Assembly (NCBI RefSeq): GCF_006345805.1
Contig: NC_043007.1
Span: 6,634,001-6,698,000 of the forward strand
Direction of reading: 5' to 3'
Source of the DNA: Octopus sinensis
Lineage: Eukaryota
DNA length: 64,000 bases
Shown: positions 6,001 to 63,000 of the stretch, one piece after another
Numbering within the stretch: the stretch's first letter is position 1
Layout: each line of letters starts with the position of its first letter
Made by a program: the position numbers

Positions 6001-9000
6001 TTAAATATTCATTCTGATTTCCTTCCGGCAGCTTTCAACTTAAATATGCTAATCAATGTTGTTTCTCATAAATGGAGGAATCTGTGTTCATACCGGATCA
6101 GTAAATAACTTATTTGTTGAGTTATAATCAAGAGCCACAAAACTTTGTTAGATTCAGTAGACCGGGGATGGCTTTGGTTGTCAAGGCACAAGTGGTTCAA
6201 AACTCTCTTACGCGAAAGAATCAACTAAGTTGTGACAAAGCAGTCATCTGAAAGAAGTTATCCTCTGGCAAGAAACAGAATCACGTTCGAATCTACCGGA
6301 ACGTCAATTTTTTGTGCTTGCTATTAATTGCAATTATTCGTGCTATTAATTGGAACAATTTTGTGTACAGAGATCCATTCCAAAAAGAAATTATTTCTCA
6401 TTCTCTCGTAATATTTTAAAGTCTTATAACGTCGACAATCTGGTGAGAAGAAACTTTCTAAAATGGGTGTAAATTTTCGAAGAATTGCTTTGTTCCAAAG
6501 GTAGAACGACTTCTGTCCTGTCTCCAGGAACGGCAACCTTCGACTTATTTTATTGATAAGGTGTTTTGAAATTAATATATACATGGTTATTTATAGAATT
6601 TTACAAAATTAATTATTTTAGTTGTCTCGAAAATTCATAACTTATTGTAACGTCAACAATATATATATATATATATATATATATATATATATATATAATA
6701 TATATATATATATATATATATATATATATATATATATATCGGAAGGTTTGGAGATGATGTACAGGTATTATATATTAGAAAAATTGAGGTAATCAGATCA
6801 GATGGTTCATATTTGTAGATATTTATTTATATATTACATTTTTTACATATATATCATATCATATCATTCGGATTTCGGACTAGCGCTTGCTCCCTTTCTA
6901 GTGGGCTTTTCAAATCAAATCAAAGTTGTGGGGAGTTTGAACATTTTATAGTTTCATAGTAGTGGGTGAGGAGGAAGTGAGACAGAGAAAAAATGTGTGT
7001 ATGTGTATGTGTGTGTGTGTGTATATGTGTGTGTGCGTGTGTGTGTGTGTGTGTGTGTGTGTGTGTGTGTGTGCGCGTTTATATCTGAGAGTGAAGAAGT
7101 GAAGAATGATCATAGAAAGTGGGACATTTGCCAGGCCAACCTACGCACAACACACACTCAGTGACATCGAAATGGACGGCCAAAGTTCTTATAAAACCAC
7201 AGGCGGTCCAGCAGACCAACGGAAATAACACTTCTTCACTCTCAGATATAAACGCGCACACACACACACACACACGCGCGCGCACACACACATATACACA
7301 CACACACACACACATACACATACACACATTTTTTCTCTGTCTCACTTCCTCCTCACCCACTACTACGAAACTATAAAATGTTCAAACTCCCCACAACTTT
7401 GATTTGATTTGAAAAGCCCACTAGAATGGGAGCAAGCGCTAATCCGAAATCCGAATGATATGATATGATATATATGTAAAAAATGTAATATATAAATAAA
7501 TATCTACAAATATGAACCATCTGATCTGATTACCTCAATTTTTCTAATATATATATATATATATATATATACATATTTAATTGTGTCTCTTTTCTGGTGC
7601 TTCGCCGTTGAAATGGTCATATGGGGTGGGGCTGTTAAATAAGTAAATACATAAATAGCTGGGTGGCCTTATCCTTTGTACGACCGGTTGTAACGATCCT
7701 TCGTTATTTGATTCCCCCTCACCCCATCCTCTAACTTCCTTCATTGCTATAAATCTTCTTTACCCACACATGACATCGCGTTAGTTTTCATATATAATAC
7801 TACCAACATGAAATAACAAATGTTGTCTAAGGCCAGCAAGGGTCATAGAATCATGAATGATCACATGCTGTTGGATTTTGAATGTTTTTGAATGTTGAGG
7901 TTCACGTATTCACCTGACGAAAATGATTTTTTTATAATGATGTCATCGTTAATCAATTAAAAATTCATTGGAAACTTCTGAAGTGAATTGACACACCATC
8001 CATCTCTTATTATTTATTTATTTACTATTTACCTCCCTCGGAACCTGCTTCTTCCCTTGATCCGAAGTATATTATGGACCGTACATTTAATGCAATGCTC
8101 GTTTTTTGATTAGCCTCACGATATACTCAGGCGGCCCCGGTGAATTGAATACATAACCTGAATATCTTTCTGTCTGTACTTTGGTCCCCGCGTATGAATT
8201 TCTCTATTTTTGTTGTGTATGCATTTTATTTTGCGACCCGAGTGCCGGTGCCTTACCATTTAAGTGCTTGAATCACTGGAATCCTGATCTATTATGAATG
8301 AGCGTGTGTGTGAGTAGCGGTTCGGCAAAGAGGTCGATAAAATAAGTACCAGGCTTAAAATAGAAAATCACTAGGATCGATTCATTCGACTAAAACATTT
8401 TCAAGGTGGTGCCCCAGCATGACTTTAGTCCAATGGCTGAATCAAGTAAAAGATATAAGTAAAAGATATATATATATATATATATAATAGAAATATTAAA
8501 ATTACTAAGTCTCTCTAAAAGAGAACAACGGCAGCGTTCCCGGAAAATATTAGTTATCGCCATACTAATATGGCATTCAAAGGTTATATGGATACAGTTT
8601 GTGTATCAAATAGCTAACTTAAGGCGATGGCCTCATGGAGCTAATAAGCGGACAGCTTTATTCTTATTTTTATAAGAATGCCATATTAGTATGGCGATAA
8701 CTAATATATATATATATATATATATATGCATATATACATGTGTGTGTGTATGTGTGGAGACATAGAAGTAGTGGAGAAAGTGAATAAAATGTGTTATATA
8801 ATTAATGTTGCGCGGCGCCCGTTTGACTGACGAAGAAGGAAAGCGATTATGGCGGAATCGTTAGCGCGCCGGGCGAGACGCTTAACGACATTTCATCCGT
8901 CTTCGTGTTCTGAGTTCAAATTCAGCCGCGATCGACTTTGCTTTTCATTATTTTGAGGTCGATAAATGAGGTACGAATTGAGTACTGGGGTCGACGTAAC

Positions 9001-60000: not shown

Positions 60001-63000
60001 ACTGGTAACCCAATATCCGCACCGGCATCCACCTCCTCTATACATGACCGTGTGAGTGTGCGTCTGTGTGTGTGGATGTGTGTGTGTGTTTGTGTGTGCT
60101 TGTTTATATATTTATATGCAACTACCTATATGCAACTACCCACTGATCCTTATTGAAAATGTTGTACATACATATATACATAGTACTTGAAAAGTTTAAC
60201 ATTAAAAACATGATAGGTGCGTGTCTTCCACCTGGATGCTTAAGCAATTCTAGGTATCTTCTGATATGGAGTATTAAACGAAAACGGAAAATTGTCCCAA
60301 GCGATTTATCCATCTACTTACGGACAACGGGTCGGGGTATACTTTTATTCCATAAATCGAGAGCTGTGTCAGTATGTATTATTTATAACTGCGCGCACTT
60401 TCATGGGTCCATGCGTGTGTTTTCACACAAATACACTCAAACACATATCTATTTAGATACATACTTGTGTACATCCATCCATCCATCCATCCATCCATCC
60501 ATCCATCCATACATACATACATACATACATACATACATACATACATACAGAGTCGCATACGTATATACATGAATACATGCATACATCTATATATAAAATA
60601 TATACATATATACATAAATGAATATATATGTGTATGTTTGTGTGTGTGTAGGTGTATAATTAAGGGCATAGAAAAAACTCTAGCCTGTACGCTGAAAGGA
60701 GACGCTAAGTCGTCGAACCACATTAGATATTTTCACTACTATTGTTACAAAGGTGTCAAAAAGCGAGGGAGCAAGTTAACGGAAATACATAAAATCCAGT
60801 TCTCGCTAGATCGGCTAATTTCTAGATTAACCCAAGGTTTTTTTTTTCATCAGCAGACAATGCCGAAGAAATCAATGAAACATTTAAATATACCGACAGA
60901 AAAACAGACGCAATGCCATGAATGCACGTAAGTACCCCAATTATGTAAAAATGCAAAGCTCTTCTCCCTAAAATGCAGTTGTTTAAAAAAATATAGAGCG
61001 GAAATTAGCACGTATGGAAGAAGACCTTCATGTCTGTGCTGATTACCATTTAAGATTTAACGCGTCATATCAATTACAACAGGGGTCCAAATTAAGCTTA
61101 GTTCCGATTTCGAATTGTAAAAACAGATGCCGTATCGTAGAAACAAGAGATGTTTACCAAGTTCTTCCTGGCTGCAACGGATACTTTAAATGACACACAG
61201 ATGTGTGCCGTACGAAACTAGGGAAGCCCATTGCGTCACACCACACAAATTACGTTGCCTAAAGCATCACATAAAATTCAACAACATATGAAATGAATAA
61301 GTAGAACGGAATTGCATAATTCTCGTTTATTCTATAATGCAGTTAACATCAAATAATTTTTGCGCGAAAGTACTGCGTTATGTGTACACCTATGTGTATG
61401 AAGTTACACACACACACACATACATATATATATATATATATATATATATATCATAGATATATATAATGTATATTTAATATATATATATATAACTAAATAA
61501 ATATATCTATATTTGTGTGTGGGTGTGTGTATGGATATATGTATGCATGCAAAGTCAGCAAATTCTTGCTTCCACATCTTACGTATATCGTTACAAAATG
61601 CAGATAAGTTTGGTGTGAATTTGGTACGTTTGTAGTGGAAAATAATCATTGGAAATTATCATGCACGAAGATGGCGGTGGTTGTGAGGGAAGTCTCCAAT
61701 CATGCACACAAACACACCGAGGCACATACGCACACTCGTACATACAAACATACACACAAATACTTATATACATATGTACATATATAGCGAGAGGATATAC
61801 ATATATATGCATATATATTTATATATCTATCTATCTATGTATCTATGCATCTATCTATATATATATATATAGACCATTGAAGAAATAGCCAAATTTTTGG
61901 CTGCTATTTCTGAAAAGTTCGGTGTGTGGTAAAGTGAATTCTTTTACTTTACCATATTTTTATAAATTAATACTTCAAATATAGCATAAATGGTCTTTAC
62001 ATACCGAATACTGCTTGGTCGAATTTATTAATAATTAATTAATTCGACCCCCTTTTTTGATAACAATATAATGCTTTCTCTCCAAGAATTTGAACTGCAG
62101 TTTTTACCTCTGTAGAAATGTAATGCTCTATGACTCACGTGGGTGGACAGGGAGAATAATAGATCTCATTCGTATTTTTGGATTCGCTAGTACTGGGTGT
62201 CTGACATGGTTTGTCCGATGTTACAGATATCGGACGGGTATGTTTGATTCTTAGTATTTTCAAATCTAAATCAGAAGAAATCTCTGAGCTGATGAAGGAA
62301 AAGTGGCGTTTTACCCACAAATCCAGAAACAGACTGTCCTCGGGTATCGTATATGGATGCGATCTTTCATTGTTTTTTCCCTTATACCTATGTGAGTTAT
62401 TTTTCTGAGTATGCATTGTCTGGAGACTTTTATTTGCAGTTGAAGAAATAGCCAAATTTTTGGCTGCTATTTCTGAAAAGTTCGGTGTGTGGTAAAGTGA
62501 ATTCTTTTACTTTACCATATTTTTATAAATTTTATATATATATATATATATATATATATATGTGTGTGTCAGGCTATCTATCTATCTATTTATCTATCTA
62601 TCTATCTATCTATTTATCTACATAACTACCTACCTATATATAAGGGTGTGTGTGTAAACATATACACATCTATGCAAATATATATATGTGTTTGTGTGAG
62701 TGCGTGTGTGTGTGTGCGGGCCTGCGTCCGTGTGTGTGTGCGTGTGTGTGTGTATGTGTGTGTGTGTTAATGTATGTATGTGCCTTTTCTGAAATAAAGT
62801 CTCATGATATATTTCAGAGATATCAATACCACATTTTCAGTAACATACCCTCTCTCTTTCCCTTGCACTCTTTCTCTTACACTTCCTTTCAGTGTCTCTC
62901 ACCTTTCCCCTCTCCCTCCCTGTTTCTCTTACGCCCTCTCTCTCTCTCTCTCTCTCTCTCTCTCTCTCTCTCTCTCTTACTGACTCTCTCTGCTCCATAC

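What the first reader, a model, noticed from the sequence alone, without database searches (positions are those of the whole stretch)
6659..62560. Many unrelated elements share one signature: (TA)n target plus inverted or redundant ends, often with an HHR
Seen: elements at 6740, 8490, 33929, 38196, 48136, 48495, 50493, 52607, 57420 and 61877 all abut (TA)n tracts, and most have inverted or terminally redundant ends without TSDs. Inference: a common microsatellite-targeting mobilisation system, probably a PLE-type RT/GIY-YIG enzyme or priming at TA breaks, serves several non-autonomous ribozyme RNAs and may help expand (TA)n in this genome. The autonomous partner is not in this window.
Basis: inference. 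Interest (0 to 1): 0.7.

Follow-up and report, generated by a model that had tools for sequence, protein, structure and literature searches.

The report
Repeats that sit beside (TA)n tracts
Short repeated elements in this microsatellite-rich animal DNA really do sit against (TA)n tracts far more often than chance, but they are a mix of a hammerhead-ribozyme retroelement family that behaves like known Penelope-type elements and ordinary inverted-repeat elements, so the pattern is real but largely already described.

Summary
Nine of the ten listed starts abut a (TA)n tract (48136 does not). Eight of ten have inverted or terminally redundant ends; 33929 and 38196 have no independent boundaries.

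An unbiased self-comparison of the microsatellite-masked window finds eight independent structures. Seven of their 16 termini lie within 10 bp of a perfect (TA)>=6 tract, against 5.5% expected (P=1e-5). The figure for SINE-like copies is 1 of 26.

Hammerhead motifs occur in only 2 of the 10 elements: the 52608-55031 array and its 66-74% relative at 61877-62531. They are dimer-type minimal hammerheads. Rfam misses them, a descriptor finds them (0.015 hits expected per window), and three compensatory pair changes support them.

This family shows the published Penelope-like insertion signature: partial tandems, an inverted copy joined 5'-to-5', (TA)n on both sides and no discernible duplication. 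Two diverged copies share a homologous 3' end.

Two conserved-terminal-repeat elements are flanked by TA on both sides, which fits a DNA transposon that duplicates TA. A mariner remnant is in the window; no reverse transcriptase or GIY-YIG ORF is.

One common system for all ten is not supported. The source genome was unavailable, so copy number, empty sites and the autonomous partner are untested.

The parts
52608..53255 (-). Inverted arm of the HHR-element array. About 1.19 units of a 542-bp unit; the sense strand is the minus strand. Its 3' end (TTATATAA motif) points left and abuts (TA)13 at 52581-52606. Its 5' end lies 11-14 nt past the unit's hairpin.
   Evidence: Self-BLAST; sequence read; junction alignment A2.
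53256..55031 (+). Head-to-tail arm of the same array, about 3.3 units. Its 5' end lies just 3' of the hairpin. Its 3' end (GAAATTATA) runs into (TA)n at 55028-55046.
   Evidence: alignment A3.
54147..54198 (+). Dimer-type hammerhead motif: CUGAUGA, 3-bp helix II with a U.U at its base, GAA, palindromic ACGUACGU, then predicted cleavage after U at 54194. Identical copies lie at 53606-53657 (+), 54689-54740 (+) and 52850-52799 (-).
   Evidence: Descriptor scan (6 hits against 0.015 expected); pair table. Rfam found nothing at E<=10.
61877..62531 (+). Diverged relative of the array unit, 66-74% identical. It is 1.16 units of 563 bp, with 92-bp terminal direct repeats that are 100% identical. (TA)8 lies 5 bp to the left and (TA)14 directly to the right.
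   Evidence: z=49.5.
62283..62344 (+). Homologous hammerhead motif: 6-bp helix I, A.A at the base of helix II, near-palindromic ACAGACUGU, and predicted cleavage after C at 62338.
   Evidence: Rfam found nothing at E<=10.
57420..58013 (.). 1.39 units of a 428-bp unit (166-bp terminal redundancy). A 9-bp hairpin lies 6 nt from its left end. No ribozyme was found. (TA)n lies 17 bp to the left. The whole block with its microsatellites is tandemly duplicated (second copy 58393-58984).
6776..7546 (.). Large foldback: 232-bp outer arms 97% alike, each arm holding a (TG)n/(CA)n tract, with a 127-bp central loop. The right end runs into (AT)15. The left end sits in a short TATATAT, separated by a unique 29-bp spacer (6740-6768) from (TA)41 at 6659-6739.
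8551..8703 (.). Small inverted-repeat element: 28-bp perfect terminal inverted repeats, with the whole element only 70.6% self-complementary. TA lies on both flanks. The right end runs into (AT)16.
48136..48261 (.). 126-bp palindrome, 83% self-complementary. It follows a (CA)n-rich repeat and is not next to a (TA)>=6 tract.
48495..48852 (.). 358-bp near-perfect palindrome (96.5%). The left end abuts the compound (TA)n at 48353-48494. The right end abuts unique DNA. It has CUGAAGA and GAAA boxes but no helix I, so it is not a hammerhead.
50495..50656 (.). 162-bp element with 36-bp terminal inverted repeats (1 mismatch) and an interior only 72.6% self-complementary. Its flanks read TA|GTTGAA...TTCAAC|TA. 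The left end abuts (TA)n at 50373-50494.
33930..34285 (.). Unclassified 356-bp segment between (TA)30 and a (TA)n(TG)n run that truncates a mariner remnant. It has no repeat structure, no second copy in the window and no convincing ribozyme.
38190..38460 (.). Unclassified segment between (CA)13(AT)7 and a (TG)n/(TA)n run. There is no evidence that it is an element.
34269..35284 (-). Degenerate Mos1-type mariner transposase remnant, frameshifted and missing about 32 C-terminal residues. It shows that a TA-duplicating DNA transposon superfamily lives in this genome.
   Evidence: Pfam Transposase_1 4.3e-18 and HTH_48 8.3e-20; homologues; C-termini compared.
10813..11045 (.). Control: a SINE-like copy with a clear 13-bp target duplication (CCTCAGCTAGTAT) inserted at the edge of (TA)92. 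Ordinary retroposition here leaves a visible TSD even beside (TA)n.

Best explanation
The association with (TA)n is real, but it is a composite of at least two unrelated mechanisms that both seek TA.

(a) The array at 52608-55031 and the element at 61877-62531 belong to one non-coding retroelement family. The canonical form is about 650 bp: hairpin, body, dimer-type hammerhead, hairpin, about 50 nt, then TTATATAA at the 3' end, with 92-105 bp of terminal redundancy. I infer that it is copied by a Penelope-like reverse transcriptase/GIY-YIG enzyme encoded elsewhere. In this reading the enzyme nicks a (TA)n tract, and cDNA synthesis starts at an A/T-only motif of a multimeric or circular ribozyme RNA. 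Synthesis runs for more than one unit, which gives the terminal redundancy or the tandem copies, and tends to end at the conserved hairpin. A second copy primed on the other strand gives the 5'-to-5' inverted arm. Because the target is a repeat, no duplication can be seen.

(b) The two small elements with conserved terminal inverted repeats (50495-50656 and 8551-8703) are more likely cut-and-paste DNA elements that duplicate a TA. For them a (TA)n tract is simply many targets in a row.

(c) The three palindromes (6776-7546, 48136-48261, 48495-48852) and the 57420 element could belong to either class.

(d) 33929 and 38196 are not shown to be elements.

Shown here: the coordinates, the structures, the enrichment, the hammerhead motifs with compensatory changes, and the shared 3' end. 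Inferred: mobility, the enzyme, the priming step and ribozyme activity.
For: Enrichment. Seven of 16 independent termini lie within 10 bp of (TA)>=6, against 5.5% expected (P=1.1e-5). None of the 16 is near a CA or GA tract. SINE-like copies give 1 of 26.

No ascertainment bias found.

Hammerhead motifs. The dimer-type descriptor gave 6 hits from 3 independent sequences; 3 of 200 simulated windows had any hit. Between the array motif and the 61877 motif there are 3 compensatory double changes, 1 one-sided change and 0 broken pairs.

Motif type matches print. The motifs have an unpaired or mismatched nucleotide at the base of helix II and a palindromic helix III. Both are the published traits of Penelope-type minimal hammerheads (PMC4209133, passages) and of the axolotl Amex2 retrozyme hammerhead (PMC7229834, passages).

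Shared termini. Two copies that differ by 26-34% end at the same homologous position and switch there to (TA)n (alignment A2). The three 5' ends lie within -14 to +3 nt of one conserved hairpin.

Published Penelope-like signature. Partial tandems, an inverted 5'-truncated copy at the 5' end, a (TA)n bias and undiscernible TSDs are all described, as are non-autonomous derivatives with multicopy head-to-tail insertions (PMC8557442, passages). Retrozymes have been proposed as Penelope-like derivatives (bioRxiv 10.64898/2026.07.22.740005, abstract and passages).

DNA-element part. 28-bp (28/28) and 36-bp (1 mismatch) terminal repeats contrast with 70.6% and 72.6% whole-element self-complementarity. 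TA lies on both flanks, including the non-microsatellite side of 50495-50656. A mariner remnant is in the window.
Against: Rfam recognises none of the hammerhead motifs. There were no hits at gathering threshold on the whole window, nor at E<=10 on 53950-54500, 61872-62532 or 46270-46530.

The usual G10.1-C11.1 pair is replaced by U.U or A.A. MFE folds of the motifs are no better than shuffles. Published minimal hammerheads cleave poorly in vitro.

The unit of 542-563 bp is longer than the roughly 300 bp given for non-LTR retrozymes.

The third hammerhead motif, at 46436-46481, is 803 bp from the nearest (TA)n tract. A hammerhead therefore does not by itself imply (TA)n.

No RT or GIY-YIG ORF is in the window, so the link to an enzyme rests on resemblance to print. 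According to PMC8557442, Naiads, the clade with the documented (TA)n bias, lack canonical hammerheads.

Only one family has two loci here. The others are single-locus, so their mobility is not shown.

TA on both flanks cannot be told apart from terminal bases of the inverted repeat, because TA is its own complement. Two of the five inverted-repeat elements (48136, 48495) lack it on one side or both.

Numbers are small, and the SINE-like boundaries are BLAST end points.
Confidence: 0.55

Rival explanations
1. One reading: one Penelope-type, microsatellite-targeting machinery made all of the structures. In this view the palindromes and the small inverted-repeat elements are 5'-to-5' pairs of heavily truncated copies.
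For: The published Penelope-like signature includes inverted repeats flanking the unit, partial tandems, tails of 30-40 bp and a (TA)n bias. A unique 29-bp spacer lies between (TA)41 and the 6776 foldback. Pairs of minimal hammerheads on opposite strands 100-700 bp apart are described.
Against: The elements share no sequence; only the array and 61877 are related. Hammerheads occur in 2 of 10. In 50495-50656 and 8551-8703 the termini are far better conserved than the interiors, as expected for transposase-bound ends and not for two decaying halves of one insertion. The near-perfect symmetry of 48495-48852 is not what two independent truncations would give.
Confidence: 0.15
2. No targeting: the (TA)n tracts grew after insertion, out of A/T-rich element ends or out of a duplicated TA, by replication slippage.
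For: The junctions lie in A/T-only motifs of the element (TTATATAA, GAAATTATA). Four elements have (TA)n on one side only (8551-8703, 48495, 50495, 57420). The genome is extremely prone to microsatellites.
Against: The array and 61877 have (TA)n on both sides, and the 6776 foldback has (AT)15 at its right end with a short TA run plus (TA)41 on its left; this fits a split pre-existing tract better. SINE-like copies, which also have A/T-rich flanks, show no excess (1 of 26).
Confidence: 0.15
3. These are not mobile elements at all: (TA)n tracts, being self-complementary and fragile, provoke local tandem and inverted duplications of whatever lies beside them.
For: A 972-bp block (57283-58287 against 58255-59262, 96.8% identical) was duplicated together with its microsatellites. 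Most structures are single-locus in this window.
Against: The array family has a second, 26-34% diverged copy 7 kb away with the same architecture and the same 3' end. The palindromes have (TA)n at their outer edge and not at their centre, contrary to fold-back repair at a broken (TA)n (reasoning).
Confidence: 0.1
4. Chance plus selection by the reader in a window where a (TA)n tract occurs about every 900 bp.
For: 70 tracts in 64 kb. Two of the ten 'elements' are defined only by the tract that precedes them.
Against: Binomial P=1.1e-5 for termini and 6e-4 for elements, on boundaries set without reference to (TA)n. The SINE-like control is flat.
Confidence: 0.03

Closest known systems
Insertion signature of endonuclease-positive Penelope-like elements (Naiad, Neptune, Penelope/Poseidon), as in Craig et al. 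2021, PMC8557442 (passages read)
   Same: Partial tandems that form pseudo-LTRs. An inverted copy joined at the 5' end. Insertion into (TA)n with no discernible duplication. Non-autonomous derivatives that give multicopy head-to-tail insertions.
   Different: There is no RT/GIY-YIG ORF here. Naiads, the clade with the stated (TA)n bias, lack canonical hammerheads. A 30-40-bp tail is not clearly present: there are 5 nt at 61872-61876, and a 29-nt spacer beside a different element.
Non-LTR retrozymes of animals (Cervera and de la Pena 2020, PMC7229834; Li et al. 2026 preprint 10.64898/2026.07.22.740005)
   Same: Non-coding, low-GC (33-35%) tandem repeats, each with a type I hammerhead. A U.U at the base of helix II occurs in axolotl Amex2. 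They have been proposed to derive from Penelope-like pseudo-LTRs.
   Different: The unit is 542-563 bp, against about 300 bp. Rfam does not recognise the motif. A (TA)n target and a fixed 3' end are not mentioned in the passages I read. Circular RNA was not tested.
Minimal dimeric hammerheads of Penelope-like elements (Cervera and de la Pena 2014, PMC4209133)
   Same: Conserved CUGANGA and GAAA boxes. A short helix I (4-6 bp). [quoted passage not shown] A small palindromic helix III, or none. Occasional pairs on opposite strands.
   Different: Helix II here is only 3 bp before an internal loop in the array family. The position relative to the terminal repeat differs: the motif lies about 150 bp upstream of the second repeat, not inside it.
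Tc1/mariner-derived miniature inverted-repeat elements (general knowledge, recalled)
   Same: Short non-coding elements with conserved terminal inverted repeats and TA on both flanks (50495-50656, 8551-8703). A mariner remnant is in the same window.
   Different: No match of the terminal repeats to a transposase-bearing element could be tested. Copy number is unknown.

Membership tests
Hammerhead ribozyme, type I, minimal/dimeric form | Conserved core boxes CUGANGA and GAAA, an A15.1-U16.1 pair, and a cleavage-site nucleotide that is not G | tested here: met
   the array motif (4 copies), 62289 and 46441.
Hammerhead ribozyme, type I, minimal/dimeric form | Helices I and II base-paired, supported by covariation | tested here: met
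   all listed pairs are standard. Array against 61877 shows 3 compensatory double changes, 1 one-sided change and 0 broken pairs. Position 10.1/11.1 is mismatched (U.U, A.A).
Hammerhead ribozyme, type I, minimal/dimeric form | Match to a curated covariance model (Rfam hammerhead families) | tested here: not met
   No hit at gathering threshold or at E<=10.
Hammerhead ribozyme, type I, minimal/dimeric form | Self-cleavage | not testable with these tools
   Needs in vitro transcription of monomer and dimer constructs.
Non-LTR retrozyme | Tandem non-coding repeats, each with a type I hammerhead, and low GC | tested here: met
   Four units with a motif each. GC is 0.327 and 0.348, and the longest stop-free frames are 85 and 123 aa, with no Pfam hit.
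Non-LTR retrozyme | Monomer of roughly 170-400 bp | tested here: not met
   542 and 563 bp, against about 300 bp in PMC7229834.
Non-LTR retrozyme | Expressed as circular RNA | not testable with these tools
   No transcript data.
Penelope-like element (non-autonomous derivative) | Partial tandem (pseudo-LTR) and an inverted copy at the 5' end | tested here: met
   92-bp terminal repeats at 61877-62531. The array has 1.19 units inverted against 3.3 units direct, joined 5'-to-5'.
Penelope-like element (non-autonomous derivative) | Microsatellite target with no discernible TSD | tested here: met
   (TA)n on both sides of the array and of 61877.
Penelope-like element (non-autonomous derivative) | RT with GIY-YIG endonuclease, or sequence identity of the 3' end to an element that has them | tested here: not met
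   0 of 440 ORFs of 45 aa or more in the window hit RT or GIY-YIG. Identity to an autonomous element elsewhere could not be tested.
Penelope-like element (non-autonomous derivative) | 30-40-bp tail at one end | tested here: inconclusive
   5 nt at 61872-61876. A unique 29-nt spacer at 6740-6768 lies beside another element.
Tc1/mariner-type miniature inverted-repeat element | Conserved terminal inverted repeats | tested here: met
   36 bp with 1 mismatch (50495-50656) and 28/28 bp (8551-8703).
Tc1/mariner-type miniature inverted-repeat element | TA duplication on both flanks | tested here: inconclusive
   TA/TA at 3 of 5 inverted-repeat elements (6776, 8551, 50495). Absent at 48136 and 48495. 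TA is self-complementary, so it cannot be separated from the repeat ends.
Tc1/mariner-type miniature inverted-repeat element | Many dispersed copies, and ends shared with a transposase-bearing element | not testable with these tools
   The source genome was not available. The mariner remnant lacks its ends.

The most novel reading that the evidence does not exclude
A single telomerase-related Penelope-type reverse transcriptase primes on the 3' end of a nicked (TA)n tract by pairing with a UAUA-containing motif of multimeric or circular hammerhead RNAs. It makes longer-than-unit and inverted cDNAs that stop at a conserved hairpin. By reiterative copying at that motif it also lengthens the (TA)n tract. 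This would make the enzyme a main driver of the extreme (TA)n load of this genome, and also the source of the palindromic 'MITE-like' structures.
Probability: 0.08. Interest if true: 0.75.

Novelty: new member of a known kind. Interest (0 to 1): 0.35.

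Why it matters
If the family at 52608-55031 and 61877-62531 is a Penelope-mobilised ribozyme element, it would be a clean small example. It would show a hammerhead-bearing non-autonomous element sharing the (TA)n preference so far stated for Naiad elements, which lack hammerheads. It would also show a fixed 3' end in an A/T motif and 5' ends clustered at a hairpin.

These details bear on how Penelope-like reverse transcription starts and stops, which the literature calls unresolved (PMC8557442).

In practice, repeat annotators should expect such elements, and TA-duplicating DNA elements, to be hidden at the edges of (TA)n tracts in microsatellite-rich invertebrate genomes.

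The general principle is already in print, so the gain is incremental.

Tried and rejected
**Rfam.** There were no hits at gathering threshold on the whole window. At E<=10 the whole-window list was filled by microsatellite look-alikes of miRNA families, with only 150 of 300 rows shown. E<=10 scans of six sub-regions gave no ribozyme.

**Descriptors.** A first strict descriptor missed the real motifs, because helix II does not start right after A9. A looser one flagged 34145-34207, but with a 1-bp helix III and a 13-nt loop; I rejected it as unconvincing.

**Box-only candidates.** The CUGAAGA...GAAA boxes in 48495-48852 and in 38196 (minus strand) lack the required helices and were rejected.

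**MFE folding** of the motifs was uninformative.

**Shared ancestry.** All-against-all local alignment of 12 element sequences showed that only the array and 61877 are related. The next best scores, z=4.6, are not significant over 132 comparisons. By eye I thought the 6776 foldback end resembled the array's right end; z was 2.6, so I rejected that.

**Solo 3' fragments** of any family beside other (TA)n tracts: none found.

**The 29-nt spacer** at 6740-6765 has no other copy in the window.

**Snap-back model.** I considered snap-back synthesis centred on the hairpin loop to explain the array's inversion. I rejected it on reading the junction: the inverted copy carries the whole hairpin plus 11-14 nt, and the direct copy starts just 3' of it.

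**Helitron reading.** Rejected by reading: the ends lack the usual termini (recalled criteria).

**Organism.** Mariner homologues are generic and ARAGORN found no tRNA gene. An octopus origin is only my recollection of the SINE sequences and is not shown by any search.

**Missing mariner end.** It is not present beyond the 33929 segment.

**Not possible.** I could not search the source genome. The collection genome contigs holds only bacteria and archaea and was not used.

Full report
**What the window is.** It is AT-rich (34% GC), non-coding and saturated with microsatellites. TRF lists 282 rows. There are 70-71 merged perfect (TA)>=6 tracts, about one every 900 bp. No tool identified the organism. 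Homologues of the one protein remnant are generic, and ARAGORN finds no tRNA gene. The SINE-like repeats remind me of octopus, but that is recollection only.

**Checking the ten sites.** I read all ten.
- Nine of the ten listed starts lie 0-17 bp from a (TA)n tract. The exception is 48136, which follows a (CA)n-rich repeat with three TA units; the nearest perfect tract is 217 bp away.
- For 6740 and 8490 the repeat structure starts further in, at 6776 and 8551. Their right ends are the ones that run into (TA)n.
- Eight of ten have inverted or redundant ends.
- 33929 and 38196 have no inverted or direct repeat at E<=1 and no second copy. Their 'start' is just where a microsatellite stops.

From that list I set aside three kinds of row:
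- SINE-SINE pairs: 8859/11024, 17627/17772, 40013/40239 and 40173/43095.
- Short low-complexity or imperfect-microsatellite palindromes, for example 2285, 11154, 16318, 20880, 37364, 41881, 50855, 61796 and 63155.
- One unexplained 28-bp direct pair at 14646/15176, which was not counted.

The two copies at 57420 and 58393 lie in one 972-bp tandem duplication (57283-58287 against 58255-59262, 96.8% identical) and count once.

The counts on these boundaries are as follows.

| Measure | Result | Expectation or test |
|---|---|---|
| Termini within 10 bp of perfect (TA)>=6 | 7 of 16 | 5.5% expected; binomial P=1.1e-5 |
| Elements with at least one such terminus | 5 of 8 | P=6e-4 |
| Termini within 10 bp of a CA/TG or GA/TC tract | 0 of 16 | - |
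| SINE-like copies (13 copies), termini within 10 bp | 1 of 26 | Fisher p=0.0026 against 7 of 16 |
| SINE-like copies, termini within 30 bp | 4 of 26 | 8.9% expected |

The caveats are small numbers, SINE boundaries that are BLAST end points, and a perfect-tract rule that puts 48495 at 17-20 bp although it directly abuts an imperfect TA run.

**Hammerheads.** Rfam finds none, either at gathering threshold or at E<=10 in six sub-regions.

A descriptor for the dimer-type motif gave 6 hits. The descriptor required helix I of at least 4 bp, CUGANGA, helix II of at least 3 bp with up to one unpaired base on either side, GAA, a short self-complementary A15.1-U16.1 segment, and a non-G cleavage nucleotide. 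In 200 first-order Markov simulations of the window the mean was 0.015 hits, and 3 simulations had any.

The 6 hits are three independent sequences:
- the array unit (53610, 54151 and 54693 on the plus strand; 52846 on the minus strand);
- its homologue at 62289;
- a lone motif at 46441.

Between the array motif and 62289 there are 3 compensatory double changes (one in helix II, two in helix III), one one-sided change and no broken pair.

The oddities of these motifs are a U.U or A.A at the base of helix II, or an unpaired A after A9, together with a palindromic ACGUACGU, ACAGACUGU or ACGU in place of a hairpin helix III. These are the traits described for Penelope-type minimal hammerheads and for one axolotl retrozyme class (PMC4209133 and PMC7229834, passages). 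They plausibly explain the Rfam miss.

Candidates at 34145, 48714/48633 and 38335 fail the helix requirements. So hammerhead motifs are present in 2 of the 10 listed elements, which are one family. The third motif, at 46441, is 803 bp from any (TA)n tract.

**Anatomy of the hammerhead family.**
- The array unit is 542 bp. The 61877 element has a 563-bp unit and is 66-74% identical to the array unit (z=49.5).
- 61877-62531 is 1.16 units with 92-bp terminal repeats that are 100% identical.
- The array consists of about 1.19 units in minus orientation (52608-53255) joined 5'-to-5' to about 3.3 units in plus orientation (53256-55031).
- Each unit has a strong hairpin: -16.8 kcal/mol, z=-4.7, with 0 of 200 shuffles folding as well.
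- All three 5' ends lie within -14 to +3 nt of that hairpin.
- The 3' end of the inverted arm and the 3' end of 61877 lie at the same homologous position, just after TT(A/T)TATAA. There the sequence switches to (TA)n, while internal units read on (alignment A2).
- The array's other 3' end lies 95 bp further on, at GAAATTATA, again switching to (TA)n (A3).
- Both elements have (TA)n on both sides and no recognisable duplication.
- By contrast, a SINE-like copy at 10813-11045, inserted at the edge of (TA)92, has a clear 13-bp duplication.

**Comparison with print.** Craig et al. 2021 (PMC8557442; passages only) describe the following for Penelope-like elements:
- frequent 5' truncation;
- partial tandems forming pseudo-LTRs;
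- an inverted 5'-truncated copy at the 5' end;
- a 30-40-bp tail;
- target duplications that cannot be discerned because of a strong bias to microsatellites, which is (TA)n in Naiads, with a zinc-finger-like linker proposed to mediate such a bias in Neptune;
- non-autonomous derivatives with multicopy head-to-tail insertions.

Cervera and de la Pena 2020, and a 2026 preprint (abstract and passages), treat tandem hammerhead repeats as non-autonomous retroelements, with the preprint deriving them from Penelope pseudo-LTRs.

A search for 'retrozyme' with 'microsatellite' returned 6 papers. For five I saw only the listing; passages of the Craig paper and of the 2026 preprint were read. In neither the listing nor those passages is a (TA)n target reported for retrozymes, so that link may be a modest addition.

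No RT or GIY-YIG ORF is in the window: 0 of 440 non-microsatellite ORFs of 45 aa or more.

**The other elements.** They share no sequence with the hammerhead family or with each other.
- 50495-50656 has 36-bp terminal inverted repeats with one mismatch, but is only 72.6% self-complementary overall.
- 8551-8703 has 28/28 terminal repeats against 70.6% overall.
- Ends conserved far better than interiors are what transposase-bound ends look like. Both elements read TA|GTT...AAC|TA, and for 50495-50656 the right-hand TA is in unique DNA.
- A frameshifted Mos1-type mariner remnant at 34269-35284 shows that a TA-duplicating superfamily is present.
- For such elements a (TA)n tract is many targets in a row. 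This explains the same 'signature' without any reverse transcriptase.
- The three palindromes (6776-7546, 48136-48261, 48495-48852) and the 428-bp-unit element at 57420 cannot be assigned. The last has 1.39 units, a hairpin 6 nt from one end and no ribozyme.

**Verdict.** The association is real and specific to TA. The unifying mechanism is not supported. The best reading is convergence of a Penelope-type ribozyme retroelement and TA-duplicating DNA elements on the same abundant target.

Mobility, the enzyme, the priming step, ribozyme activity and any role in expanding (TA)n remain inferred. The source genome was not available to any tool, and the supplements of the cited papers were not opened.

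Noticed in passing
46436-46481 (+): A third, very clean minimal hammerhead motif: 5-bp helix I, an unpaired A after A9, a 5-bp helix II, and ACGU in place of helix III. It lies in a single-copy segment, 803 bp from the nearest (TA)n tract. Rfam finds nothing at E<=10.
   Followed up: partly
34269-35284 (-): Frameshifted Mos1-type mariner transposase remnant (HTH_48 and Transposase_1). About 32 C-terminal residues and both ends are missing. It is cut off at a (TA)n(TG)n run at 34286-34310.
   Followed up: partly
57283-59262: A 972-bp block, made of the 57420 element plus its complex TA/TC/GA microsatellites, is tandemly duplicated at 96.8-98.9% identity. This suggests unequal exchange between (TA)n tracts.
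   Followed up: partly
8850-9024, 10813-11078, 17573-17939, 26706-26955, 40126-40337, 3095-3206: One SINE-like family with six copies at 74-88% identity. The copy at 10813-11045 has a 13-bp target duplication at the edge of (TA)92. 17627-17689 and 17772-17834 form a partial internal tandem.
   Followed up: partly
24054-24300 and 40908-41153; 38564-38713, 44029-44214, 15188-15311, 327-374: Two further short interspersed repeat families, at 83% and 71-85% identity. They were used only as controls and were not classified.
   Followed up: no
14646-14673 and 15176-15203: A 28-bp direct repeat pair (96% identical) 530 bp apart, in otherwise unique DNA. Unexplained.
   Followed up: no
whole window, e.g. 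41760-41877, 2287-2357, 44850-44922: Sub-threshold Rfam hits to mir-297, mir-466, mir-5014 and similar families are (TG)n/(TA)n compound microsatellites folding on themselves, not miRNA genes.
   Followed up: yes
1307-1459, 15598-15826, 23645-23899, 37112-37389: Very long simple repeats: (GTA)50, (AAT)77, (AT)129 and an imperfect (TA)139. Together with many tetranucleotide arrays, they show an unusually slippage-prone genome.
   Followed up: no
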